Shown here piece after piece: positions 420-20,000 of a stretch of 20,000 bases of DNA. This DNA is from an uncultured virus (IMG/VR IMGVR_UViG_3300012001_000011) (Duplodnaviria > Heunggongvirae > Uroviricota > Caudoviricetes): the IMG/VR virus record IMGVR_UViG_3300012001_000011, one strand, 5' to 3'. The position numbers and the translations under genes are program-made. The notes under the pieces were generated by a model. It was given only the letters and a program-made list of their open reading frames with translations. It was not told where the DNA came from and did no database searches. Position 1 is the stretch's first letter. Each line of letters opens with the position of its first letter.

Positions 420-677
420 CGCGGGTTGTATTTGCGCTTTACAGCCTACGTGGCGTTTTCGTTGAAAATACAGCGCTAAGTGTTTGTTTTGTGGCGGTCT
501 ATACAGTGGTTTTGTGTGGGTATTGTATAATGCTAGATTCGCTGTTAAGCGCATGATTCCATTCACAAAAGAGCTATCTCAGCATGCTTTCTACTGCAAA
601 TATAAGGGTTAGAAAGTAGCCTTACTGGCTGCATGGCGTTGGCAAAGTTTACTAATATTCGTTGAATATTTTACGAA
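420..677. other. Candidate attP region
   Basis: AT-rich gap just downstream of int, between convergent phage genes; inverted repeats AATATTC-gtt-GAATATT (654-670) and CTTTCTA..TAGAAAG (587-616). Confidence 0.5.
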
Positions 678-1781
678 TTACTTTGCCGTGATGACCTGAT
701 AACCCTGCCCGCGCATGTCGTCGTATTTCGCTGTCATCGAGGCGTTTTTGTGCCCCATCATCGACTGTGCAAACGCGGCGCCAAACTCGGCCTTAAACAG
801 CCGTTCGGCTAGGCTGCGAATCTCGTGGAAGGTTGGCGGCGTCCTGCCCTCTGCTGCCGTGATCTTGGCTGATGCCACCGCCTCTTGAAACGCATTCGAC
901 AGGCCATTTCCCGGTATTTTATCGCCGGGCCGTGCCGTCCCTCGGTGCATCGTGTGGTGGACCATATGCCGGCTCACGACCAGATCGCGGCATTCCTGTA
1001 TCGCCTCGCCTATCGACACGCCGACGACTGCCAATCGAATATTGACGTCCAATTGCAGCTTGATTTCGCCCTGACTCTTTTCTTGCGCCACATGCAAATA
1101 TCCGTCGCGTTGGTCGGCGAACTTCATGCTTGCGATGTCGCCCCGGCGCTGGCCGGTCACAAGGGCCAGCAGCATAGCTCGTTGCAGCCATACTGGCGCG
1201 CAGGCTCGGATTGCATGGAACTGCTCAAGAGTCAGGCGTTCGCGCCGCACAGAGCGGCTGGCGGTGTATGTGGCGCTTACCGGGTTTTTCCCCTGCTCGA
1301 TCAAGCCTTGGGTCTCGGCCATGCGGAAAACGTCCCGCATCCTGGCGCGCATGCCGACAGCCGACGACGAGCCGCTTTCCTGCTCGACCGCTTCCAGCAA
1401 CGTAGCCGCGTGCGCCGTGCCAATCTCGGATAGCCGCATCCATGCGCAATCTGCTGCGGCTATCCGCTTGAGATAGCCGGAAGCGTTGCGCAGCGTGTTT
1501 GGCGCAGGGTCGGTCTTGCTGCTCCACAGTTCCTTGTAGATCGGCACCCACTCGGCTAACGTGTAATCCTTCTTGCCCGTCAGCCAGTCAACCAGCGAGG
1601 ACGGCTTGCGATTAGCGATTGCGGCATTGCCCGACCGCGCCTCGGCAAACGCCTTCGCCTTGTCTCGGCCTAGTCCTAGTGACCGCTTACTTTCAGGGTC
1701 AATGAAATAGAAGTATCCCGCCGTGTTTTGATACAGGTTCGGCGGGAACCCGCTGTTCTTTGCCAATCGCTTCCTGCCCAT
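678..1781 (-). CDS. int: Lambda-type tyrosine integrase with N-terminal arm-binding domain, 367 aa
   Basis: N-terminal MGRKR..PPNLY..GYFYF.DP; catalytic R (TGQRRGDI), HEIR, MGH and KY. Confidence 0.97.
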   Translation of the reverse strand: MGRKRLAKNSGFPPNLYQNTAGYFYFIDPESKRSLGLGRDKAKAFAEARSGNAAIANRKPSSLVDWLTGKKDYTLAEWVPIYKELWSSKTDPAPNTLRNASGYLKRIAAADCAWMRLSEIGTAHAATLLEAVEQESGSSSAVGMRARMRDVFRMAETQGLIEQGKNPVSATYTASRSVRRERLTLEQFHAIRACAPVWLQRAMLLALVTGQRRGDIASMKFADQRDGYLHVAQEKSQGEIKLQLDVNIRLAVVGVSIGEAIQECRDLVVSRHMVHHTMHRGTARPGDKIPGNGLSNAFQEAVASAKITAAEGRTPPTFHEIRSLAERLFKAEFGAAFAQSMMGHKNASMTAKYDDMRGQGYQVITAK

Positions 1782-1963
1782 TAATCACTCACGTATTCTG
1801 CTGTCGGCTTGACTTGCCAAGCGCGGCCTACCTTCTTCGGTTGCGGCTGAATGCGGCCTTCGTGCACCCATTTCAGCAGCGTGTTTTGGTGCGGTACCTT
1901 GGAAAACATCGTTGCGGCCCACTCGGGCAGCGTGATGTATCGCGGCTTAATTGTCGTCGTCAT
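1781..1963 (-). CDS. xis: Excisionase, 60 aa
   Basis: YITLPEWA..P...TL.KW...GRI.P.PKKVGR.W.V...AEY lambda Xis-like pattern; TAATG coupling to int. Confidence 0.92.
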   Translation of the reverse strand: MTTTIKPRYITLPEWAATMFSKVPHQNTLLKWVHEGRIQPQPKKVGRAWQVKPTAEYVSD

Positions 1964-2136
1964 TCCCGCCTCTCCTTATCTTCCCCATCCTGCCCCGGCC
2001 CGTCATCAGTCGCGCAGCCGCAGCACGCCACCGGCTTGTGGCACAGTCCGCACATTGGCGGGGGCTTGGTGAATATGCGCTCCCAGGCTGTCGGCGGGAT
2101 GACTCCAGGGCGGCGCGCGCTTCCTTTTCCGCTCAC
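1960..2136 (-). CDS. Hypothetical protein, 58 aa (GTG start; MSGKGSARRP...CGLCHKPVACCGC)
   Basis: GTGA overlap with the upstream stop at 2133-2136; ATGA overlap with xis. Confidence 0.6.
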   Translation of the reverse strand: MSGKGSARRPGVIPPTAWERIFTKPPPMCGLCHKPVACCGCATDDGPGQDGEDKERRE

Positions 2137-2327
2137 GTCATATCCTTCGGGTCGTTGTCGTGCGCTTTCAAAAGCATGCGGGGCGCGTTCGGTTCGGATG
2201 GCGGCATAGACTGGCAAATGGCGATGCACTTTGCGTGACTTAGCGTCGGCCAGTTGTGCAGCGTGTGCGTGCCAGTTCGCATGTCAAGCGTCACCGTGAT
2301 GAAGCGCCCCTGCTGACGATCATCCAT
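2133..2327 (-). CDS. Hypothetical protein, 64 aa (MDDRQQGRFITVTLD...)
   Basis: ATG at 2327 overlaps the end of the 748-aa gene (ATGGATGA); purine-rich RBS upstream. Confidence 0.6.
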   Translation of the reverse strand: MDDRQQGRFITVTLDMRTGTHTLHNWPTLSHAKCIAICQSMPPSEPNAPRMLLKAHDNDPKDMT

Positions 2328-4566
2328 TCTCTTCCCCCTTATGTGTAGCCGAAGCGGAGATAGCATCGTTTGCTTTCTTCCATACAAGGCACCATGCGCA
2401 TGGCTTTCCGGCCTTATCGCCATTGTCGCTATCCCATATTCCCGGCACGCTATGCGAGTGTCCGGGCGCGTCGCCATTCCGATTCAAGTGACGTTTCGGT
2501 ATTTCGCGCATGACGGCGGTAAGCAATGCCCGCCAGTGCGCCGCATCCCGCTCAAGCGCAGCTATCGACTTGCCATCAACGCCCATGGCAACGAACAGCG
2601 ATTCGGCATCGGTGAATACGCCTAGCAACGGATCATCCACCGCGCCCGCTTGCTCGACCGTCTCGGGCTTGGCCTGCTCGGCTCCGCAATTACATGGCCC
2701 TTTTTTTCCGCCAATGCAGAGCAGTGCATGACCTCCCCAATCCCCACCACCTGTCTCGGGCTTGGCCTGCTCGCCGCAAACGCCGCACGGAGAATTCCCC
2801 GGCGCTGGCGATCCTTCGCAGCCGACGCATTGCGATGGCTTTGCCTGCTCGGTTGCTGGCTGAGCCAGAAGTTCGCGGATATCTTCAAAAGCATCTGTTA
2901 CTTTATCGTCTTCATCCTCGAATATATCCATATCGTTGAGAATATCGCCCATGTGATTCATGGCTTCGTAAATCCCTTCAAGGGTATCGCGTGGAACATT
3001 CATCACACCACCCTTCTCGGCTATGGGCGTAGCCGGGGCAGCACGGACCGCAGCGAGGCATTCGTTCCAGCCTGCCAGATAGTCTCGATTCGCGCACATC
3101 GACATACTCAGCGGCTCCACATCCACTGCCATCCCTGCCCCTACTGGCGCTGGGCGGGCAGCACGAAATAGCGACACCACAGCGGCGGCACGATGTATGC
3201 CCGCCAGGAATGCAACTTTTTCCGGAATCGTATTAGCTGGGTTGCATTGCAGCGCTAGAACGGCGCTGTGAATCTCTGCGATATCCGGCGCATCCTCGGA
3301 AGGCGCTGGGACGCGAATCGCCGCATCGCTCCCGCCTTGCCTGCACAGCAGGCCATATGCGCGGGCGTAGACTTGCATCTGGTCGTCAGCGTAGTGATTG
3401 CGCGATCCCTCGGAGGCTTGTGGGAATGACTGCCAAGGTGTCGGCAATTCCGGCAGCGCGCTCAACTCTTGCACCTGGTCGGCGCTCTGACTCGTGGCGG
3501 GGTGGGTGTAGAGCGGCGTAAGTTCGCTACTCAAAGTTGGCTCGTAACCCGCCTTCCAGCGCCGTGCTGCTTCGATGTCGCCAAACCAAATACGGCAGTT
3601 GCCATCTGGTGCGAAAACCGCCCAAGCAACTGGATCGCTTGCCTGAGCAGGCATTGCTGCGGGAGGGGTGGCTAGAGCAGCGGCATAGTCGCTGTAGAGA
3701 ACATATTCGCCGTCGTCATCGCCTATCATGTTTGCGCGACCATGATCTTCGTAAATCGAGAAGCGTTCTACAGGCACGGCGCTCTGGCTTGCCCCTGTAG
3801 GAGCGGCAAGGGCGGCAAGCAATTTATTGATGGCATCTTCTTTGGTATCGCCAAATCCAGCGGGGGAAATTTGGAGATCAATGAAATCAGGCCAAACTGC
3901 GCAGATAGCGTCACCATCGCGGAATACTCGTGGCGCAAATGGTTGAGCTGCGTGCAGTGCATACATTAGGCGTCGCTCTACTAAATCTCGCAGGCGATCA
4001 TCGGTTGTATCCACCAGTGCTTCTTCGAGTCCTTCGGCTTGAGCAGCCTCAAAACACCCGACTACCTCGATAATCGCCTTGAGCAGCGCATCGCTCGGCG
4101 CAGCTACTGTAGGAGAGGTGGCATTGATGATGTCGAGCAGCGAATCGACACGAGTGCGCAACTGAAAAATCCAGCGACGCGCCTGCGCCATATCGAGCGG
4201 CATACTGTGGTCGCTCGGCGCAGCGCTGCTACTGTCTGCCTCGCTCGGCTTGGCCTGCTCGCCCACGTAGCACACGCAAGGCGATCCGCTGCGCGCTGGG
4301 CAATCTGTATCGTGAGGCTTGGCCTGCTCTTGCGCAGGGGCGCGGAGGTTCCAGGCGGCGATTGCTTCGCTTATCGCCTCTTCCTTGCTCGATAGCCAGC
4401 CGTCAACCGTCAGTGCGTTCGGCCCTCGCGCCTCGCAATCGCCGCACTCGATATAGGCGCTGTGGAAGTTGTCCGGCTGCACGGAATACGCGTCCGTGCT
4501 CAGGTTCGTGCCGCCGCAATGCAGACATGGCAGCAGCTCGGTGCTTGTTGGTGCGTGGGATTTCAT
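2320..4566 (-). CDS. Mosaic early accessory protein, 748 aa: N-terminal Lar zinc ribbon plus Ead/Ea22-like modules
   Basis: LLPCLHCGG...IECGDCEARGP...AIAAWNLRA at the N-terminus; DPVAW..TPLYTHP, GEYVLYSDY, LAGWNECLAA and ERDAAHWRAL modules. Confidence 0.85.
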   Translation of the reverse strand: MKSHAPTSTELLPCLHCGGTNLSTDAYSVQPDNFHSAYIECGDCEARGPNALTVDGWLSSKEEAISEAIAAWNLRAPAQEQAKPHDTDCPARSGSPCVCYVGEQAKPSEADSSSAAPSDHSMPLDMAQARRWIFQLRTRVDSLLDIINATSPTVAAPSDALLKAIIEVVGCFEAAQAEGLEEALVDTTDDRLRDLVERRLMYALHAAQPFAPRVFRDGDAICAVWPDFIDLQISPAGFGDTKEDAINKLLAALAAPTGASQSAVPVERFSIYEDHGRANMIGDDDGEYVLYSDYAAALATPPAAMPAQASDPVAWAVFAPDGNCRIWFGDIEAARRWKAGYEPTLSSELTPLYTHPATSQSADQVQELSALPELPTPWQSFPQASEGSRNHYADDQMQVYARAYGLLCRQGGSDAAIRVPAPSEDAPDIAEIHSAVLALQCNPANTIPEKVAFLAGIHRAAAVVSLFRAARPAPVGAGMAVDVEPLSMSMCANRDYLAGWNECLAAVRAAPATPIAEKGGVMNVPRDTLEGIYEAMNHMGDILNDMDIFEDEDDKVTDAFEDIRELLAQPATEQAKPSQCVGCEGSPAPGNSPCGVCGEQAKPETGGGDWGGHALLCIGGKKGPCNCGAEQAKPETVEQAGAVDDPLLGVFTDAESLFVAMGVDGKSIAALERDAAHWRALLTAVMREIPKRHLNRNGDAPGHSHSVPGIWDSDNGDKAGKPCAWCLVWKKANDAISASATHKGEENG
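2660..4329. repeat. Dispersed 14-21 bp repeat GGCTT(G/T)GCCTGCTC encoding EQAKP, 5 copies
   Basis: Copies at 2660-2680 and 2753-2773 (21 bp identical), 2837-2851, 4247-4261 and 4316-4329. Confidence 0.9.
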
Positions 4567-11256: not shown

Positions 11257-11516
11257 GCTGCTACCCGAAACTCGTTGTGCCACTGGTGACGCTCAGCGCG
11301 GAACTCGCTGTTCTGCTGCCGCGCTTCCCGTGCCAGTTGCGCATCCACGCACTCAGCCATGGACAGCAGCGTGTTGACCGGGAAAATGTCGATCAGGTTG
11401 ATTGCGCTGTCGGCAGCGGTTACGCGGGTGATCACGCACTCGTCAGCGTCACGGGTGCCGAGCAGGTTCAGCAGCACGCCGTCGTGGTTGTAGTGGCGGA
11501 GGGTGAAGGCGGTCAT
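11253..11516 (-). CDS. Hypothetical protein, 87 aa
   Basis: ATGA coupling on both sides. Confidence 0.7.
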   Translation of the reverse strand: MTAFTLRHYNHDGVLLNLLGTRDADECVITRVTAADSAINLIDIFPVNTLLSMAECVDAQLAREARQQNSEFRAERHQWHNEFRVAA

Positions 11517-12121
11517 GCTGGCACCAGCTCACATTTAGCGCATACGCGGCGCAGTTCTTTTTCTTGAGCATCCCCTGCGGCAGCCCGTGCGGCAGCCCAT
11601 GCGGCACCCCGTGCGGCATCCCCTGCGGCAGCCCATGCGGCAGAAGATGCGGCACCCCGTGCGGCATCCCCTGCGGCAGCCCATGCGGCAGAAGATGCGG
11701 CAGCCCGTGCGGCAGCCCATGCGGCATCCCATGCGGCAGCCCATGCGGCATCCCCTGCGGCAGCCCATGCGGCAGCCCGTGCGGCAGCCCGTGCGGCAGC
11801 CCATGCGGCATCCCGTTCTTGCTGGCTCGCCTCGCCGTTCGCAAAGCGCTCAGCAACATCCAGCGCATCCGTGCTTCGCTTATCGGTCATTAGGTGTTGA
11901 ACCTGCCGTGCGCACCAGACTGCGAACAGGCGGATTTCCTTGTCTCGGCCTTGCACAGCACGAAGGCACCACAGCGCATCATCCAAGCCATTGCTATCGA
12001 GAATTTGCACAATGCTGACCGGCTCGTCGTCAGCCTTTGTCTTGCACAGCGTGCGCAGTAGTTTTTCCCAGCCTGAGTGGCATGGCGAATGCTCGCGGAT
12101 TTCGTTCAGGGTAGTTTTCAT
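11513..12121 (-). CDS. Imm5-like domain protein with Ala-rich tetrapeptide repeats, 202 aa
   Basis: MKTTLNEIREHSPC..GW..LL; RLFAVWCARQV..DALDVAERFANGE; repeats AAWA/AARA/AAGD; start at 12121 after AAGGA. Confidence 0.8.
   Translation of the reverse strand: MKTTLNEIREHSPCHSGWEKLLRTLCKTKADDEPVSIVQILDSNGLDDALWCLRAVQGRDKEIRLFAVWCARQVQHLMTDKRSTDALDVAERFANGEASQQERDAAWAAARAAARAAAWAAAGDAAWAAAWDAAWAAARAAASSAAWAAAGDAARGAASSAAWAAAGDAARGAAWAAARAAAGDAQEKELRRVCAKCELVPA
11568..11814. repeat. 12-bp tandem repeat GCA-N5-TGCG, 20 units
   Basis: Read directly from the sequence; units 4-7 are duplicated exactly as units 8-11 (48-bp higher-order repeat). Confidence 0.97.
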
Positions 12122-12129
12122 GTCCGTCC

Positions 12130-12282
12130 TTATCGTGCGCACTCGGCGCTTTGTGCAAACCACCCAAGCTGCCGGCGAATCTCGGCAGGCGAGGGTGGCG
12201 GCGTCTTGACCTTCGGGGCCGTCCAGCGAGCCTGCGTAAAGGCCCTGAAGGCTTCTTTTGGCGGGTGGCTGAGGGTAGTCAT
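12130..12282 (-). CDS. 50-aa protein MTTLSHPPKEAFRAF...PPPSPAEIRRQLGW (not in the ORF track)
   Basis: ATGA coupling to the antirepressor stop; PPPS.EEIRRQLGW motif recalled from Oxalobacteraceae small proteins. Confidence 0.75.
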   Translation of the reverse strand: MTTLSHPPKEAFRAFTQARWTAPKVKTPPPSPAEIRRQLGWFAQSAECAR

Positions 12283-12995
12283 TTGGCGCTCGCATCGGCA
12301 GGAGAATATTTGCGGACCAAAAACACTTGACCCGCGCCCGTCACCATCGCGGTAAATGTCGGATGCTTGGCGCCCTTGCTGTCAACAAACGGCTCCTGCT
12401 CGTTGACCGTGAAATATTCGCGGTCGATGTACTTCTGATACGGCAGGTTGCTTTGCATCAAAATGCCGTCGTCGCGCATCTTCTTGAAAAGCTTGTTGCG
12501 CCCGATGCCGATGGTCTTGGCAATTTTTTCGATGTGGCACACGCCGTCGATTGAGCGGATGGCTTCGGCGAAGGCAACCTTCGGCGCGTCAGCAGCAACC
12601 CGAGCGGTAAGCGCCAGCTTGGCCTCGAACTGCTCGGCCCATGCGCGGGCGGCGATGGCGGGGTTGGTGAAGTCGGGCAGGGTTACGGACGATCCGACCT
12701 CAAGCTCTGCCATGCGGTCGTAGACTTTCGCCTGCACTGGATACGACTCAGACATCACCATCAGTGACGCCTCGCGCTTCGGCAGGCGATAGCATGGGTA
12801 CGATTGGCCGTTCTGCGCATGAATGTAGGTGTCGGAAAATTTTCCGCTACCCTCACCAAGCACGCGAGCAACTTTTTTCATGAAGTCGGCATGTGCCATC
12901 TCTGGCTTGCCAGCATCCCGCATCGAATTGATGAGCGCGACCAACTCCAGGCTCGTCATCGTCGCAACGCCGACCATCAGGTCACGGGAACCCAT
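12279..12995 (-). CDS. Phage antirepressor (Rha-like N-domain plus KilAC/ANT C-domain)
   Basis: TMTSLEL...H.DFMKK...QNGQSYPCYRLPKREA; LPDFTNPA.AARAWAEQ; APKVAF...IGRNKLF..MR...NLPYQKY...VTGAGQ. Confidence 0.92.
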   Translation of the reverse strand: MGSRDLMVGVATMTSLELVALINSMRDAGKPEMAHADFMKKVARVLGEGSGKFSDTYIHAQNGQSYPCYRLPKREASLMVMSESYPVQAKVYDRMAELEVGSSVTLPDFTNPAIAARAWAEQFEAKLALTARVAADAPKVAFAEAIRSIDGVCHIEKIAKTIGIGRNKLFKKMRDDGILMQSNLPYQKYIDREYFTVNEQEPFVDSKGAKHPTFTAMVTGAGQVFLVRKYSPADASAK

Positions 12996-16898: not shown

Positions 16899-17627
16899 TT
16901 ACAGCCCACCTGTGCCACTTCGATCCCGCACGCGACCGATGACTGTGATGTGCTCGTTGGCCAGATCGGTCGAAACCTCTTCGTCCTTATATGAAGGGTT
17001 CACGCTTCGCAGTATGACGGTCCCGTCTAGGCGGCGACTTAGGTACTTGACGCGCAACTCGTCGCCGTAGCGAATCGCGTAGAGCTTACCGTCAACGATG
17101 TTTGTTTCATCAGTGTTGACTAGGATGGTATCGCGAGGATAGAGCATGGGTACCATGCTATCGCCAGACACACGGAATCGACGCACCCTCTCAGGGTTGA
17201 TCTTGTACTTCTGAAACCAACTCAGGCGGTAGGTGGCTGGCTCTTCATCCTCGATCAGCTCGTATTGCGCAGTGCGACCATTCCCTCCTGAAAATTCAAT
17301 GCGCGACTCAGGGACGAAAACAACATCATCTGGCGGGGGATCATCTGGGTGAAGTGCTGTTACCAATGACTTAACGTTCGCACTCGGGCTGGCACGACCA
17401 TCATCGCCGGCCCTCACCAATCCGCCGCGCGAAGCCTCTCCCATTAGTTCTGAGAGCGAGATGTCAAGGCGTTTAGCAAGAGCGGCGAGCTTTGCGGCTT
17501 CTGGCATCCCTTTGCCACGCTCCCAGTCCGAGATGTTGACTGACTTGATGCCCCATATGTCGGCAATTTGTTGCTGAGTCAGCCCCAGTTCCTTCCGACG
17601 ATTTCTAAGTATTTGGTGAAATTTCAT
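16899..17627 (-). CDS. cI: CI-like repressor (XRE HTH plus S24 peptidase)
   Basis: LRNRRKELGLTQQQIA...ISDWERG HTH; VSGDSM.P catalytic Ser and RVKYL Lys; VIGRV end. Confidence 0.96.
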   Translation of the reverse strand: MKFHQILRNRRKELGLTQQQIADIWGIKSVNISDWERGKGMPEAAKLAALAKRLDISLSELMGEASRGGLVRAGDDGRASPSANVKSLVTALHPDDPPPDDVVFVPESRIEFSGGNGRTAQYELIEDEEPATYRLSWFQKYKINPERVRRFRVSGDSMVPMLYPRDTILVNTDETNIVDGKLYAIRYGDELRVKYLSRRLDGTVILRSVNPSYKDEEVSTDLANEHITVIGRVRDRSGTGGL

Positions 17628-17700
17628 AAGGCAAAGCCTATCAAAAATAATTTAGGTTAATCCTTGACTTTGTATTAGGTTTAACCTGATACTGTGACCT
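17628..17700. promoter_or_regulatory. PR/PRM switch with operators OR1-3
   Basis: PR TTGACT(17664-17669)-18 bp-GATACT(17688-17693); PRM TG-A-TAGGCT (17643-17635); AGGCAAAGCCT 17629-17639, AGGTTAATCCT 17654-17664, AGGTTTAACCT 17677-17687. Confidence 0.88.
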
Positions 17701-17955
17701 ATGAACACTCAAATCAAAGAAGCGATGGATAGAGCCGGCGGAGTCGCTGTCGTTGCGGCGCACTTCAAAATTAGTCCGGTATCTGTGTACGAATGGATCA
17801 AGCGCGGACTCGTTCCTGCTGACAAGTGCCCAGAAATTGAAAAACTTTCTGGCGGTGCTGCTCGGTGCGAAGACATGAATAACCGTGTTGATTGGGCCTA
17901 CTTGCGCCTAGCAATAGAGACCAAGCGTACCCGCCGCCCACCAGCGCCGCCTTGA
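17701..17955 (+). CDS. cro: Cro/YdaS-like repressor
   Basis: AGG...VA....IS..SV.EW..RG.VP..KC..IE..SGG...CE......DWAYLR; divergent from cI. Confidence 0.92.
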   Translation: MNTQIKEAMDRAGGVAVVAAHFKISPVSVYEWIKRGLVPADKCPEIEKLSGGAARCEDMNNRVDWAYLRLAIETKRTRRPPAPP

Positions 17956-18013
17956 CCTTCATTAGACATCGCCACTAGCAGCACGTTCACCGCAGGCCTA
18001 ACCGAGACATCAC

Positions 18014-18334
18014 ATGCAAACCGAAGCCCTGTATCAAGCCGTACTAGCCGCCATCACCCAGCATGAGGCCAGCAACGACCCAGCGGAAGTTGCTCGCCTG
18101 CTGACGAACATCCTGGTTGCCTTCGCCACCTTGGTGCGCGGCCCTGATCCGGTTGTTCAATCGGTCGCGGCCACAGCTATCGACTTTCCACCGCCAGTAG
18201 GCGCTATTGCTGGTTATTGGGTATCGATCCTCGGTAGCCGGCGGCCAATCTGGATAGAGACGCCGCTGCGTGCTCAAGCGCCACAGCCTGAAGTTCAAGT
18301 AGCGTCGGATTCACAAGCGGAACGTGAGTGCTGA
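18014..18334 (+). CDS. Possible hypothetical protein, 106 aa
   Basis: Follows cro with a weak GAGA RBS; 3' part overlaps an antisense gene. Confidence 0.4.
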   Translation: MQTEALYQAVLAAITQHEASNDPAEVARLLTNILVAFATLVRGPDPVVQSVAATAIDFPPPVGAIAGYWVSILGSRRPIWIETPLRAQAPQPEVQVASDSQAEREC

Positions 18335-18419
18335 TTGTGACGTGTCCGTCATCAATTTGATATGTCGCATCAAGCCTGACGCCGCCGTTTTCGGCAGAAA
18401 GTCTGATTGTTGAAGTCAT
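18204..18419 (-). CDS. Leftward hypothetical protein, 71 aa
   Basis: RBS AAGGA; extended -10 TG-T-TAGATT (18464-18456). Confidence 0.65.
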   Translation of the reverse strand: MTSTIRLSAENGGVRLDATYQIDDGHVTISTHVPLVNPTLLELQAVALEHAAASLSRLAAGYRGSIPNNQQ

Positions 18420-18540
18420 GGGGAGTTCCTTCGTAAGTTGTTGAGTGGAATTGACAATCTAACACGCTGGGATTTCCCGCCCTAATTTAAATAAATAGCA
18501 ACACGTAACACCATTCCTGTAATCCAAAAAGGAGCAACAC

Positions 18541-18792
18541 ATGAAACAAGATCGTACCCGTCATATCGCAGTGAAAAGCCTGTTCCGCGCAGATCAATTT
18601 GTCGAGTTCAAACAGGAGTGCGAAGAAAGCGATGTATCGCTGAGCCGTACCTTAAGCGATCTCGCTGACTACTGGATGGCATGGAAGAAGTATCTCAAAT
18701 CCAACAACGTAGTGGAATGCCCAGGACCAGCACAGAACATGGCCATGTTTCCCGCTTTCCGTGGCGGTACTCCGTTTCCACAGTTGGTTTGA
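18541..18792 (+). CDS. RHH-like protein at the CII position, 83 aa
   Basis: RBS AAGGAG; IAVKSLF strand followed by two helices (..SLSRTLSDLA). Confidence 0.7.
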   Translation: MKQDRTRHIAVKSLFRADQFVEFKQECEESDVSLSRTLSDLADYWMAWKKYLKSNNVVECPGPAQNMAMFPAFRGGTPFPQLV

Positions 18793-18843
18793 TGCGATAC
18801 GTCGGCAGCAAACGAATAGCCAATAGATCCGCTTGGAGTTTTT

Positions 18844-19047
18844 ATGACCGCCAAAAGCGACGTTGAAAAATCTGCATTTCTCTGGCGCTCACTTACTCTG
18901 AAGGCAAAAAAAATGCCGGAGGGTGATGCCAAGAAGGCCATCAACAAGGCGGCAAGTAATGCACTCCGGACGATGGGTAAGGCGGTAGATGCCGCCGAGT
19001 CCCGCGAGGCCTGGGAGTCAAAGAAAGTTGCCAAACCGGAGCGCTGA
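18844..19047 (+). CDS. Basic hypothetical protein, 67 aa
   Basis: RBS GGAG; Lys/Ala-rich helical sequence. Confidence 0.7.
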   Translation: MTAKSDVEKSAFLWRSLTLKAKKMPEGDAKKAINKAASNALRTMGKAVDAAESREAWESKKVAKPER

Positions 19048-19114
19048 CGCCTCCCCACCAATAAATGATCGCACGCCGCCACAGCGCGGCTTTGATCAAA
19101 GACAGGAGAAATGT

Positions 19115-19348
19115 ATGACCGAATACAACCCGAATGGCCTGCTGGATGCGCTTAGCGCAAAGCTGCTGGCAAAGAACGATGCGGCGCTGGCTCGCGCGCT
19201 GGATATCGCCCCGCCTAACCTGAGTAAGCTGCGCGGGCACAAAATGCCCGTTGGCGACTCCTTCATCCTGCGCCTGCTTGACCGCGAGATCATGACCCTG
19301 CCAGAAATTCGCGCGTTCGTGCCGTCGCCTTATGTGGGTGCCGCATGA
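19115..19348 (+). CDS. XRE-like HTH protein, 77 aa
   Basis: YNPNGLLD.L..KL..KNDAALAR.L.IAPP.LSKLR family recalled from Oxalobacteraceae; RBS AGGAG. Confidence 0.85.
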   Translation: MTEYNPNGLLDALSAKLLAKNDAALARALDIAPPNLSKLRGHKMPVGDSFILRLLDREIMTLPEIRAFVPSPYVGAA

Positions 19349-20000
19349 CTGCCGCCGTGATCAAGAAGGCCAAGCCAAAGGCTGCGAAACCATACTCGCT
19401 GCCAGCCGGCCACGCCCTGGTGCTGCGCACTTGCAGCGAGAACATGCTCGCTCATGGTGATTTTGAATGGCCGAAGGTCGGCGGCGTAGCGACGGCACTG
19501 GATTGGGCGCCGACAAACAAATGTGGCAAAGGTTTGCATGGCTGGCTGTACGGGCAAGGCGACCACGAAGCCGCAACGCACCTTGGCAAAACCGCTAAGT
19601 GGCTGGTGGTCGAAGTTCCCGAGGCTGGAATCATCATGTTCGGTGGGAAGTGCAAATTTCAAAGCGGGACCGTGCGATTCATCGGTGCCAAGGCTGACGC
19701 AGCGGCATTCCTGATTGCCCACGAGCCGCGCGCTGCAAACGTGGCCGTGATCGGCGCAACGCTGGTCGTTGGTGACGGAATGGCATGCATGGTCGGGGCG
19801 CTCGGCACCGCCACGGCAGGCTACAGAGGCACCGCCACGGCAGGCGACAGCGGCACCGCCACGGCAGGCTACAGAGGCACCGCCACGGCAGGCTACAGCG
19901 GCACCGCCACGGCAGGCTACAGAGGCACCGCCACGGCAGGCGACAGCGGCACCGCCACGGCAGGCGACAGCGGCACCGCCACGGCAGGCGACAGCGGCAC
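19345..20000 (+). CDS. Ice-nucleation-protein (InaZ)-like protein, 3'-truncated by the window (not in the ORF track)
   Basis: Open from ATG 19345 (ATGA coupling) to the window end: ...ALVLRTCSENMLAHGDFEWP...CGKGLHGWLYGQG...AKWLVVEV...KF...V.FIG...AAAFL, then GTATAG(Y/D)(R/S) repeats. Confidence 0.85.
   Translation, partial: MTAAVIKKAKPKAAKPYSLPAGHALVLRTCSENMLAHGDFEWPKVGGVATALDWAPTNKCGKGLHGWLYGQGDHEAATHLGKTAKWLVVEVPEAGIIMFGGKCKFQSGTVRFIGAKADAAAFLIAHEPRAANVAVIGATLVVGDGMACMVGALGTATAGYRGTATAGDSGTATAGYRGTATAGYSGTATAGYRGTATAGDSGTATAGDSGTATAGDSG
19804..20000 (+). repeat. 24-bp tandem repeat GGCACCGCCACGGCAGGC(T/G)ACAG(A/C), at least 8 units
   Basis: Variable dipeptides in order YR, DS, YR, YS, YR, DS, DS, DS; continues past the window edge. 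Confidence 0.97.

What the first reader, a model, noticed from the sequence alone, without database searches (positions are those of the whole stretch)
19345..20000. Phage early gene resembling bacterial ice-nucleation protein (InaZ N-domain plus TxT octapeptide repeats)
Seen: an ORF absent from the ORF track translates to MTAAVIKKAKPKAAKPYSLPAGHALVLRTCSENMLAHGDFEWPKVGGVATALDWAPTNKCGKGLHGWLYGQGDHEAATHLGKTAKWLVVEVPEAGIIMFGGKCKFQSGTVRFIGAKADAAAFLIAH, then at least 8 GTATAG(Y/D)(R/S) repeats. Recalled: Pseudomonas syringae InaZ begins approximately KALVLRTCANNM..H..LIWP..G....W......GL.GLLWG.G.......ARWIVCEV.....I......VKF....V..VG....A..FI, and its repeats are AGYGSTxT octapeptides forming a beta-solenoid. 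Both parts match colinearly (AGYRGTAT vs AGYGSTxT, with TxT retained). Inference: a phage relative or progenitor of ice nucleators in the lytic early operon, with no signal peptide. It could bind ice, or more likely be an enzyme-like domain (CGxGLH) on a variable solenoid. Related phage proteins probably already exist in databases as hypotheticals.
Basis: partly seen in the sequence, partly recalled or inferred. Interest (0 to 1): 0.85.

Follow-up and report, generated by a model that had tools for sequence, protein, structure and literature searches.

The report
Phage mini ice-nucleation-like protein with shuffling repeats
The window ends inside a temperate-phage early gene whose three parts are all related to bacterial ice-nucleation proteins, and whose 24-base repeats change in number and order between almost identical phages; the family is large and already catalogued, but nobody knows what it does.

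Summary
It ends in 8 perfect 24-bp units (GTATAG + YR/DS/YS), cut by the window end.

It belongs to PHROG 18079 / Pfam DUF7666, a family with 2065 clusters at 50% identity. Named members are Bbp36 of Bordetella phage BPP-1, whose repeat is annotated "VR2", and Burkholderia phage Mica gp52, annotated "ice nucleation protein".

I fetched a real 873-aa ice-nucleation protein (INP) and tested the resemblance.
- N-domain: hhalign prob 99.6, E 2e-24.
- C-terminal cap: prob 96, E 4e-9.
- Both INP ends hit only phrog_18079.
- The phage octapeptides fail Pfam's INP repeat model, so this is a homologue, not an INP.

AlphaFold2 (pLDDT 92.8) gives a beta-solenoid with a strand every 8 residues.

The array is hypervariable. 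Two 12.7-kb contigs differ only by one unit. Within most arrays the first 18 nt of every unit are identical, and 2-5 "cassettes" are shuffled.

The N-domain looks remotely related to the T4 RIIB C-terminal domain, sharing a C-x-x-G-L-H motif, and has an ADP-ribosyltransferase-like fold. Both are leads only.

Function is inferred: a dispensable early factor in phage-host conflict. A natural role in ice nucleation is unlikely.

The parts
19345..20000 (+). 5' part (218 codons) of the INP-like gene; the window ends inside its repeat array
   Evidence: ORF list; phrog_18079 E 2.6e-81; P0003 has identical residues over the last 125 aa before the array and carries the complete C-terminus
19345..19410 (+). 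Lys/Ala-rich N-terminal tail (aa 1-22); no signal peptide
   Evidence: Sequence; mean hydropathy of the first 30 aa is 0.18; not conserved in alignment A1
19411..19719 (+). N-domain (aa 23-125). Matches Pfam DUF7666 below its cut-off and is homologous to the INP N-domain. Family-invariant residues include R28, C60-G-x-G-L-H65-G and K104
   Evidence: Pfam 23.2 bits against a cut-off of 27; hhalign to INP prob 99.6; invariant columns; model pLDDT about 90
19720..19803 (+). Short helix and degenerate first solenoid turns (aa 126-153), including the most hydrophobic stretch (aa 133-151)
   Evidence: Model of P0003 has strands at 139-142 and 147-150; Kyte-Doolittle maximum 1.85 at aa 133-151
19804..19995 (+). 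Eight 24-bp units: an 18-nt invariant core followed by TACAGA, GACAGC or TACAGC. They encode GTATAG + YR/DS/YS
19996..20000 (+). First 5 nt of a ninth unit, cut by the window end
19115..19348 (+). Upstream small HTH-like ORF whose stop overlaps the start of the INP-like gene (ATGA), suggesting co-transcription and translational coupling
   Evidence: phrog_3642 E 8e-4; sequence
17701..17955 (+). Cro-like regulator, first gene of the rightward early operon
   Evidence: phrog_35 E 1.8e-11
17623..17693 (+). Two sigma-70-like promoter matches upstream of the cro-like gene. No + strand terminator-like site lies between here and the window end
   Evidence: Consensus scan only
16899..17627 (-). CI-like repressor with an S24 peptidase part, divergent from the early operon
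   Evidence: phrog_4 E 2e-43, phrog_6201 E 9e-22

Best explanation
The ORF is the first two thirds of a small cytoplasmically made protein of a temperate, lambda-like phage found in a soil metagenome. With its missing 3' end it would be roughly 260-330 aa. It belongs to the family catalogued as PHROG 18079 / Pfam DUF7666, whose named examples are Bbp36 (VR2) of Bordetella phage BPP-1 and the 'ice nucleation protein' of Burkholderia phage Mica.

Shown here:
(1) The protein has three modules: a ~100-aa N-domain, an array of 8-residue units, and a ~45-aa C-terminal cap. The cap is seen in relatives and in a contig end of the source run. The N-domain and the cap are homologous to the matching parts of bacterial ice-nucleation proteins. 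The units resemble the INP repeats but fail Pfam's model for them.
(2) The units are predicted to form a beta-solenoid with one strand per unit, so two units make one 16-residue turn as in INPs. The invariant T-A-T-A lies in the strands and the two variable residues lie in the turns.
(3) The array is a hypervariable cassette region. Within an array the first 18 nt of every unit are kept identical, even at synonymous sites. Only the last 6 nt differ, among 2-5 unit types. Near-identical phages differ in the number and order of units.

Inferred:
- Slippage or unequal recombination between the identical cores expands, contracts and reshuffles the units. This changes the length of the solenoid and the pattern of residues along its two edges.
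- The N-domain, with its invariant C-x-x-G-L-H, is a remote relative of the C-terminal domain of T4 RIIB and has an ADP-ribosyltransferase-like fold.
- The protein is a dispensable early accessory factor in phage-host conflict (counter-defence or host takeover). Its solenoid surface is kept diverse by selection.
- Ice nucleation is probably not its natural role.
For: Family membership: phrog_18079 E 2.6e-81. Phage relatives are Bbp36 with its annotated VR2, Mica gp52 and D14O. 3328 relatives among 8000 scored candidates. 2065 / 1461 / 258 representatives at E<=1e-3 / 1e-10 / 1e-30.

INP homology: BLASTP of the N-domains gives 37% over 103 aa, E 1e-17. Each INP end hits only phrog_18079, at E 1.7e-20 (N) and 1.2e-4 (C). 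hhalign gives prob 99.6 / E 1.9e-24 for the N-domain and prob 96.0 / E 3.9e-9 for the cap. The phage-only profile A3 finds 2 places in 401 genomes, one of which is the INP N-terminus at E 7.2e-29. Family members carry STQTAG, STLTGG and R-coil-like units.

Hypervariability: L001 and L003 show 0 mismatches over 12.7 kb and a single gap of one 24-nt unit. 433 pairs of relatives have >=97% identical flanks but different arrays. In 12 of 15 arrays all 18 core positions are invariant, while the cores differ between loci. The window and P0003 have identical N-domains but different arrays.

Early, accessory position: the gene lies downstream of the cro-like gene and is start/stop-coupled to an HTH ORF. 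No neighbour gene is shared in >=4 of 21 loci. bbp36 is reported as non-essential and not tropism-related in PMC2884959, passages seen. RIIB is an anti-RexAB factor of unclear mechanism according to preprint 10.1101/2023.05.28.542683, passages seen.
Against: No experiment or expression data bear on function.

The Pfam DUF7666 match of the window ORF is below the curated cut-off: 23.2 against 27 bits.

The phage octapeptides do not hit the INP repeat model at E<=1, and neither did the genome G001 that carries a phage-type gene.

The RIIB link covers only 54 of 114 columns. It is not significant against T4 RIIB alone (prob 3.9).

The invariant C60, G61 and H65 are absent from the INP, so anything they do is not shared with INPs.

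The array in the window is a short-read assembly product of uncertain length. Differences between arrays of metagenomic contigs could in part be assembly errors.

Selection for diversity is inferred from the pattern, not measured.
Confidence: 0.72

Rival explanations
1. It is a working ice-nucleating or ice-binding protein, a lysogenic-conversion factor that gives the host frost-related activity. The Mica genome announcement suggested this.
Against: The relatives listed have only 4-23 units, which is 2-12 turns, against 65 turns in the P. borealis INP (PMC10727499). Individual small solenoids are not expected to nucleate at high temperature; this is established knowledge, not tested here. The INP repeat model is not matched. 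Many relatives are named from Pseudomonas aeruginosa, Acinetobacter and Bordetella phages. Here the gene sits in the lytic early operon, not in a lysogen-expressed position. Rapid shuffling of the turn residues has no obvious use for ice.
Confidence: 0.08
2. It is a cell-envelope protein. The N-domain anchors it to the membrane, as proposed for INPs. The variable solenoid is displayed there as a changeable surface, for superinfection exclusion or receptor masking.
For: The INP N-domain is described as the outer-membrane anchor in PMC10727499, passage seen. The T4 record annotates RIIB as a 'membrane integrity protector'. Repeat-number variation is typical of surface proteins (general knowledge).
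Against: There is no signal peptide or lipobox. The only hydrophobic stretch is modelled as solenoid strands. The export route of INPs is itself unknown. The gene is in the lytic early operon here.
Confidence: 0.15
3. The N-domain is an active NAD-using enzyme (an ADP-ribosyltransferase or similar), and the solenoid is its variable targeting or oligomerising arm.
Confidence: 0.2
4. The resemblance to INPs is convergent low-complexity similarity of Gly/Thr/Ala repeats, not common descent.
For: The repeat-to-repeat BLAST hits rest on biased composition. PF00818 is not matched.
Against: The non-repetitive N-domain and C-cap match on their own, with three independent methods and a whole-genome specificity check.
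Confidence: 0.02
5. The variation is made by a diversity-generating retroelement, as for the tropism gene of BPP-1.
For: BPP-1 carries both a DGR and VR2.
Against: Variation is by whole-unit gain, loss and replacement, not scattered substitutions. No second copy of the core that could serve as a template lies in the 20 kb. None of the 20 window ORFs scanned against PHROGs is a reverse transcriptase. The family occurs in many unrelated phage contexts.
Confidence: 0.02

Closest known systems
Bbp36 with variable region 2 (VR2) of Bordetella phages BPP-1/BMP-1/BIP-1
   Same: Same family: tblastn 51-52% identity over aa 22-150. The architecture is the same. Its 24-bp units give GTATAG+YR/ES/EK, 14 units in the NC_005357 record. 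The literature describes a 24-bp element (a 19-bp repeat plus one of three 5-bp spacers) repeated 9-20 times depending on the isolate, non-essential and not tied to tropism (PMC2884959, passages seen).
   Different: Different phage type and host. BPP-1 is a Rauchvirus with a DGR, whereas the window is a lambda-like temperate phage from soil. The cassette sets differ (YR/DS/YS here). The primary paper (Liu et al. 2004, PMC344406) is not held, so I have not seen its own data.
Bacterial ice-nucleation proteins (InaZ/InaK/InaA type; Pfam PF00818)
   Same: Homologous N-domain and C-terminal cap. The middle part is built of 8-residue half-turns with a Thr-x-Thr strand and an A/G-G turn, and is predicted to form a beta-solenoid with 16 residues per turn. 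Cap positions D194 and Y218 are conserved in the phage family. I align them by eye with the INP cap residues D1208 and Y1230, whose triple mutant with F1204 abolishes activity (PMC10727499).
   Different: It is 3-5 times smaller. The unit is 8 residues, not 16. The PF00818 model is not matched. There is no ~50-residue flexible linker. I did not see the alternating WO / SxLT / tyrosine-ladder pattern or a distinct R-coil block in the GTATAG type. The phage-invariant C60, G61 and H65 are L, E and V in the INP. The arrays are hypervariable. The gene is phage-borne and early.
Burkholderia phage Mica gp52, annotated 'ice nucleation protein'
   Same: Same family: 52.6% identity over aa 16-150, E 6e-41. 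It is the one place in print I found where a member is linked to INPs (PMC7883832). The GenBank note cites BLASTP to Swiss-Prot Q47879 at E 4e-10.
   Different: Mica is a P2-like myophage. Its array has only 4 units. The published statement is one sentence proposing a virulence role, without domain analysis.
T4 RIIB (C-terminal domain)
   Same: It shares the invariant Cys-x-x-Gly-Leu-His motif and the following strand. Profile-profile prob 86.9, E 4.2e-6, well above shuffled controls. 11 of the 50 best BFVD structural rows are RIIB-type. Both are early, dispensable phage proteins.
   Different: Only about half of the domain aligns. RIIB has an N-terminal HTH-like part and no solenoid or cap. 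Its partner rIIA has no counterpart here. The link is remote and unproven.
Mycobacteriophage Tweety gp54-type tetrapeptide-repeat proteins
   Same: This is another phage ORF class with in-frame short tandem repeats in which some positions are fixed and others vary. The Tweety authors already compared it with VR2. A protein of that style, with AAxx repeats, lies in this same window at 11513-12295.
   Different: The sequences are unrelated. The unit is 12 bp, not 24 bp. It is thought to be unstructured rather than a solenoid.

Membership tests
PHROG 18079 / Bbp36-VR2 family | N-domain and array match the family profile | tested here: met
   phrog_18079 E 2.6e-81, aa 9-211 on profile positions 7-209 of 251
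PHROG 18079 / Bbp36-VR2 family | In-frame 24-bp tandem units with an invariant core and a few alternative ends | tested here: met
   8 units, 3 types, 18-nt core invariant. BPP-1, Mica and D14O show the same pattern
PHROG 18079 / Bbp36-VR2 family | Conserved C-terminal cap (GEIRIxxWD...RYR...GEDG...Y) | tested here: inconclusive
   It lies beyond the window end. It is present in P0003, which has an identical N-domain. A contig end in run X1 reads into AKGEIRIKYW by my hand translation
Pfam DUF7666 (PF24703) | Score at or above the gathering cut-off of 27 bits | tested here: not met
   23.2 bits for the ORF and 25.5 for the N-domain alone. Close relatives pass, for example P0001 at 35.2 and P0010 at 38.8. 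16 of the 17 members of A2 match at E<=10
Bacterial ice-nucleation protein (PF00818 type) | Repeats match the Ice_nucleation model | tested here: not met
   No hit at E<=1 for the window ORF or for P0001, P0003, P0010, P0020. Only sub-threshold hits in 2 of 12 other family members: P0121 at 21.3 bits and P0267 at 19.6 bits, cut-off 27
Bacterial ice-nucleation protein (PF00818 type) | INP-type N-terminal domain | tested here: met
Bacterial ice-nucleation protein (PF00818 type) | INP-type C-terminal cap | tested here: met
   Met for the family, not for the truncated window ORF: hhalign prob 96.0, E 3.9e-9, and phrog_18079 E 1.2e-4 with the INP's last 54 aa
Bacterial ice-nucleation protein (PF00818 type) | Dozens of 16-residue turns, with R-coils and a flexible linker after the N-domain | tested here: not met
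   4-23 eight-residue units in the 120 listed relatives. The N-domain runs straight into the solenoid in the model. INP anatomy is taken from PMC10727499
Bacterial ice-nucleation protein (PF00818 type) | Ice-nucleation activity | not testable with these tools
   Needs droplet-freezing assays
ADP-ribosyltransferase fold superfamily | Fold similarity to solved members | tested here: inconclusive
ADP-ribosyltransferase fold superfamily | Catalytic motif (H-Y-E or R-S-E) and NAD binding | not tested
   No residue-level superposition was available. R28, H65 and E90 are conserved, but their roles are unknown
T4 RIIB C-terminal domain | Profile and fold similarity, including the C-x-x-G-L-H motif | tested here: inconclusive
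   hhalign prob 86.9, E 4.2e-6, over 54 columns. Shuffle control best score 15.7 against 39.8. Prob 3.9 against T4 RIIB alone. 11 of 50 BFVD rows are RIIB-type
DGR variable protein | Template repeat, reverse transcriptase and adenine-directed substitutions | tested here: not met
   No second copy of the core in the window. No RT among the 20 ORFs scanned. Changes are whole-unit events

The most novel reading that the evidence does not exclude
Bacterial ice-nucleation proteins are domesticated offshoots of this large phage family. On this reading an early phage conflict protein had an RIIB-like C-x-x-G-L-H domain, a recombination-shuffled octapeptide solenoid and a cap. It was captured by a few plant-associated Gammaproteobacteria, lost the Cys/His motif, paired two octapeptide types (STQTAG-like and SxLT-like, both found separately in the phage family) into 16-residue turns, and expanded them. 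In the phages, the array is a retroelement-independent diversity generator that rewrites a binding surface by cassette shuffling, in an arms race with host defences.
Probability: 0.3. Interest if true: 0.85.

Novelty: new member of a known kind. Interest (0 to 1): 0.6.

Why it matters
The gene itself is one more member of a catalogued but uncharacterised phage family. The surrounding facts are worth more than the gene.

(1) INPs have been treated as a small, isolated bacterial family, now also known in fungi. Two current INP papers that I searched contain the word 'phage' 0 times. Here all three INP modules turn up in a family with about 2000 clusters at 50% identity. Some members carry the exact STQTAG motif or R-coil-like units. 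This makes the origin of INPs, and the function of their poorly understood N-domain, directly testable.

(2) VR2 of BPP-1 has reportedly had no known role since it was described in 2002-2004 (PMC2884959). The data here show that the phenomenon is general, follows a strict rule (invariant 18-nt core, 2-5 cassettes), and is fast: one unit change against zero substitutions in 12.7 kb.

(3) A possible link between DUF7666, the INP N-domain and RIIB would connect three proteins of unknown mechanism.

All functional statements remain inference.

Tried and rejected
Looking for the source record
- No whole genome is held for the window.
- Megablast of 18000-20000 against 50,697 phage records found nothing.
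- An exact 47-nt search of IMG/VR found nothing.

Sequence searches that gave nothing
- NCBIfam: 0 families.
- PDB by sequence: 0 hits with the ORF. With profile A2 there was one chance-level hit to a ribosomal protein, E 0.79.

First attempts to reach an INP
- The search for homologous proteins with 'longer' lengths and region 1-150 found only 2 phage-type proteins among 711 candidates, at E<=0.01 and again at E<=10. The word index did not bring up INPs.
- PF00818 in 401 genomes of the class of G001: 0 hits.
- The route that worked: OprF to find a Pseudomonadaceae handle, then PF00818 in that family.

Other blanks
- ESM Atlas: best score 0.81, unnamed clusters, nothing usable.
- Conserved neighbours: none shared by >=4 of 21 loci within 3 kb. 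The largest cluster covers 3 loci and is the cro-like gene.
- Genome-contig scan: only 3 loci from 547 pattern hits.
- Foldseek against the PDB: no match at E<=0.001 for either model.
- Sequencing runs: no RNA holder is listed. The contigs show no indel or joint rows across the array because they break inside it.

Tools not available

Literature
- DUF7666 / PF24703: 0 papers.
- Searches combining 'ice nucleation protein' with phage or prophage terms returned only the Mica note as relevant.
- Liu et al. 2004 (PMC344406) is not held.
- No supplements were opened.
- Earlier findings of this scan: nothing by sequence.

Ideas rejected
- DGR-driven variation.
- Convergent low-complexity similarity.
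- The other open frames through the repeat. They are open only because the repeat has no stops.

Tree
- INP groups with P0160 and P0142 (support 0.83) inside a clade of 11 (support 0.87) among 164 N-domains. With one INP and no outgroup, this cannot show that INPs arose within the phage family.
Full report
**What is in the window**

The 20-kb window is part of a lambda-like temperate phage or prophage. PHROG scans of 20 ORFs give:
- an integrase (678-1781, -);
- a leftward block with Erf-like annealing protein, exonuclease, SSB and NinB;
- an Ant-like anti-repressor;
- a CI-like repressor with an S24 part (16899-17627, -);
- a divergent Cro-like gene (17701-17955, +).

Two promoter-like sites precede the cro-like gene. 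No terminator-like site follows on the + strand up to the window end (consensus matches only). After three small ORFs without PHROG matches comes a 77-aa HTH-like ORF (19115-19348). Its stop overlaps the ATG of the ORF in question (ATGA).

That ORF runs from 19345 to the end of the window: 218 codons, open at the 3' end. From 19804 it consists of eight perfect 24-bp units plus 5 nt of a ninth. The first 18 nt of each unit are identical, and only positions 19 (T/G) and 24 (A/C) vary, giving GTATAG followed by YR, DS or YS. By chance 0.03 copies of the core are expected.

**Where the window comes from, and its missing end**

No genome is held for the window, and it is not in the phage or IMG/VR collections. 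Public runs from one soil-metagenome study hold it. Their contigs break inside the array. Repeat unitigs have much higher depth than the flanks: up to 147 against 11 in X1, and 310 against 56 in X2. So the true copy number is uncertain and probably larger than a few.

One X1 contig leaves the array at 19846 and continues into letters that I translate as AKGEIRIKYW. This is the start of the C-terminal part of database protein P0003. P0003 has 230 aa, its last 125 residues before the array are identical to the window's, and its array reads YR DS YR AK. The gene's missing end is therefore the family's usual cap.

**Family**

- The ORF matches PHROG 18079 (unknown function) at E 2.6e-81.
- It matches Pfam DUF7666 only below the cut-off, 23.2 against 27 bits.
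- tblastn finds 8 phage records, at 51-57% identity over the N-domain: Bbp36 of Bordetella phages BPP-1/BMP-1/BIP-1, where the repeat is annotated "variable region 2; VR2"; Burkholderia phage Mica gp52, annotated "ice nucleation protein" on a BLASTP hit to Swiss-Prot Q47879; and a Pseudomonas phage D14O protein labelled FliK.
- 44 IMG/VR loci encode relatives, and many of those contigs end in the repeat.
- The big protein collection has 3328 relatives among 8000 scored candidates. Those listed are 225-380 aa long and are named from P. aeruginosa, Paraburkholderia, Cupriavidus and Acinetobacter, as DUF7666, "Ice nucleation protein" or "S-antigen".
- A profile of 16 phage N-domains finds 2065 clusters at 50% identity with E<=0.001.

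A paper on mycobacteriophage Tweety summarises VR2 (PMC2884959, passages seen). It describes a 24-bp element (a 19-bp repeat plus one of three 5-bp spacers) repeated 9-20 times depending on the isolate. It gives the role as unknown, the gene as non-essential, and no link to tropism. The primary paper is not held.

**Testing the ice-nucleation resemblance**

I needed an authentic INP from a tool. The word-indexed search did not bring one up. I therefore found a Pseudomonadaceae genome handle with the OprF family and searched 401 genomes of that family with Pfam's Ice_nucleation model. Three genomes matched, two of them above the cut-off. G423 has an intact 873-aa INP (L061:3323-5944; PF00818 E 2.7e-211).

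Results:
- Window aa 23-123 against INP aa 5-105 gives 37% identity, E 1e-17.
- The INP's first 110 aa hit one PHROG out of 38,880, phrog_18079, at E 1.7e-20 on profile positions 19-124. Its last 54 aa hit the same PHROG alone, at E 1.2e-4 on positions 201-250.
- hhalign of a 40-sequence family alignment gives prob 99.6, E 1.9e-24 for the N-domain, and prob 96.0, E 3.9e-9 for the cap.
- As a specificity check, a profile of phage N-domains only (A3) was run over the six frames of the same 401 genomes. It found exactly two places: a phage-type gene (E 7.6e-47) and the N-terminus of the INP (E 7.2e-29).

The flanking modules are therefore homologous beyond reasonable doubt.

The repeats are a different matter. 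They align to INP repeats at 43-53% identity without gaps, but that is biased composition. Neither the window ORF nor four full-length relatives reach PF00818 at E<=1. Pfam in turn does not recognise the INP N-domain as DUF7666.

So the protein is a homologue of INPs with the same three-part plan. It is not a member of the INP family as that family is defined.

**Intermediate forms**

The family is not limited to GTATAG. Among the 150 best representatives, 71 have a clear 8-residue array by a crude periodicity test. Their motifs include GTATAG (31), STLTGG, ATVTGG, GTSTSG, STNTGG and, in P0229, STQTAG, which is the INP Thr-x-Thr motif itself. The other 79 showed no array by that test. Some of them are short fragments.

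- STLTGG-type members resemble the second half of the INP turn, and two of them give sub-threshold PF00818 hits (2 of 12 examined).
- In a quick tree of 164 N-domains the INP groups with P0160 and P0142 (support 0.83) inside a clade of 11 (support 0.87).
- P0160 has TGRDSIV-type units that look like INP R-coils.
- With a single INP and no outgroup this does not settle the direction of descent.

**Structure**

AlphaFold2 on P0003 with the family alignment gives pLDDT 92.8 and pTM 0.82. The model has:
- an alpha/beta N-domain (strands 23-30, 48-50, 64-68, 85-92, 97-114; helices 116-132);
- short strands every eight residues from 139 to 182;
- two hairpins for the cap.

**Hypervariability**

- L001 and L003 come from two different metagenome records. 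They align over 12,726 and 12,750 nt with 0 mismatches and a single 24-nt gap: 12 against 13 units.
- Among 120 relatives, 433 pairs have >=97% identical 125-aa flanks but different arrays. Examples with 100% identical N and C flanks differ by unit number, order, or replacement of a single unit such as NW by YK, which needs three base changes at once.
- At the DNA level, in 12 of 15 arrays all 18 core positions are invariant within the array, including third-codon positions. The other three arrays have one or two variable core positions. Cores differ between loci at synonymous sites. Variation is confined to the last 6 nt, with 2-5 unit types per array.

This is concerted evolution of the core together with maintained diversity of the ends. 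The simplest mechanism, which is inferred, is slippage or unequal recombination between identical cores. It is not DGR-like: there is no template copy, no RT, and the changes are whole-unit events. Part of the array differences between short-read contigs could be assembly error. The L001/L003 case and the isolate-to-isolate variation reported for BMP-1 argue that the phenomenon is real.

**The N-domain**

In the phage family L27, R28, F40, W42, D53, W54, C60, G61, G63, L64, H65, G66, K104 and G114 are invariant in 40 sequences. The INP keeps R28, C30, K104 and the glycines, but has L, E and V in place of C60, G61 and H65.

Folded alone, the N-domain has pLDDT 88.7. Its best solved-structure rows are dominated by ADP-ribosyltransferase-fold proteins, about 36 of 50 by my reading of the titles:
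- then PARPs, Tpt1, DarT, ParT, pertussis, diphtheria and LT toxins.

Against predicted viral structures, the whole model matches DUF7666 proteins best (E 6e-14). Eleven of the 50 best rows are RIIB-type proteins, with about 100-120 aligned columns and E 4e-3 to 3e-2. Foldseek does not say which part of the model these rows cover. The profile comparison below places the match in the N-domain.

I followed this up:
- T4 RIIB alone is not significant against the N-domain profile (prob 3.9). The alignment does place RIIB's C-S-R-G-L-H on the family's C-G-x-G-L-H.
- With an alignment of seven diverse RIIB C-domains, in which C, G, L and H are invariant, hhalign gives prob 86.9, E 4.2e-6 over 54 columns.
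- Forty column-shuffled controls reach at most score 15.7 against 39.8 for the real alignment. The reversed alignment scores 10.6.

RIIB is an early, dispensable anti-RexAB factor whose mechanism is described as unclear. It is toxic on expression and is sensed by a gasdermin defence system (preprint 10.1101/2023.05.28.542683, passages seen). I treat the RIIB link as probable but unproven.

**Context and function**

No neighbouring gene is shared by four or more of 21 loci. In BPP-1, Mica, D14O and the window the gene sits among early, regulatory or replication genes, but in different arrangements. It behaves as a free-standing accessory module.

- There is no signal peptide. The one hydrophobic stretch (aa 133-151, hydropathy 1.85) is modelled as the first solenoid strands.
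- Two representatives carry an N-terminal A1S_2505-type phage domain.
- One contig carries three tandem paralogues.

Putting this together, my best reading is a dispensable early protein used in phage-host conflict. It would have a conserved RIIB-like (possibly ART-like) head and a solenoid whose length and edge residues are rapidly reshuffled. That role is inference from position, dispensability, remote similarity and the variation pattern.

A natural ice role seems unlikely, for three reasons: the solenoid is short, many hosts are animal-associated, and here the gene is placed in the lytic operon. Ice binding in vitro is possible and easy to test.

**Novelty**

The family, its repeat (VR2) and even the label "ice nucleation protein" are already on record. 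The window's gene is therefore a new member of a known, uncharacterised kind.

Within the held library I did not find the following in print:
- the three-module homology to INPs;
- the intermediate repeat types;
- the strict core-and-cassette rule of the arrays;
- the link to RIIB.

Two INP papers contain 'phage' 0 times. Subscription journals and supplements were not seen.

Noticed in passing
window 11513-12295 (-), repeat at 11568-11814: A second in-frame tandem-repeat ORF lies in the same phage. It has a 12-nt unit x20.6 (also read as 48 nt x5.1), giving AAxx tetrapeptides (AAWA, AARA, AAGD, AASS, AARG...). The ORF matches phrog_18326 (unknown function). This is the Tweety gp54 style of repeat that the Tweety paper compared with VR2. 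Here both kinds sit in one genome.
   Followed up: partly
L063 (G790) 560-1414 (+) and 1444-2445 (+): In a Pseudomonadaceae genome the phage-type gene has STLTGGxx units (333 aa). It is directly preceded by a 284-aa pentapeptide-repeat protein (ANLSD/ANLRG), which is another solenoid-forming repeat protein.
   Followed up: no
P0121 and P0222 (database proteins): These are fusions of an N-terminal A1S_2505-family phage domain (NF049995, phrog_2072; unknown function) to the DUF7666-solenoid-cap protein. NCBIfam's YdhT model weakly matches the solenoid-plus-cap end of P0121, at E 4e-6 and 26.5 bits against a cut-off of 300.
   Followed up: partly
L049 / G002:C100 (6.1-kb contig of an Alcaligenaceae MAG): Three DUF7666 matches lie in tandem on one short contig, of which at least two are full paralogues with arrays.
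   Followed up: no
IMG/VR loci L002, L009, L013, L017, L018, L027-L044: Many viral contigs begin or end inside this repeat. Three contigs have it at both ends (L018/L035, L009/L039, L028/L029). The array is therefore a common assembly breakpoint, and in circular assemblies it is the place where the circle is cut.
   Followed up: no
L062 (G682:C1:2995000-3004000): A second Pseudomonadaceae genome has INP repeats split over several short open frames of 66-298 aa. It is apparently a disrupted INP gene. Its N-domain was not found by the phage profile.
   Followed up: no
BFVD hit Q2Z0Y1, Pseudomonas phage EL: A 327-aa protein of a lytic jumbo phage matches 95 columns of the model at 50% identity and rmsd 0.6. 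The module is therefore not confined to temperate phages. tblastn had not listed it.
   Followed up: no
window 2320-4566 (-): A 748-aa ORF next to the integrase has only a short Lar-like restriction-alleviation match at its N-terminus (aa 3-85, E 2.6e-9). The rest is unassigned.
   Followed up: no
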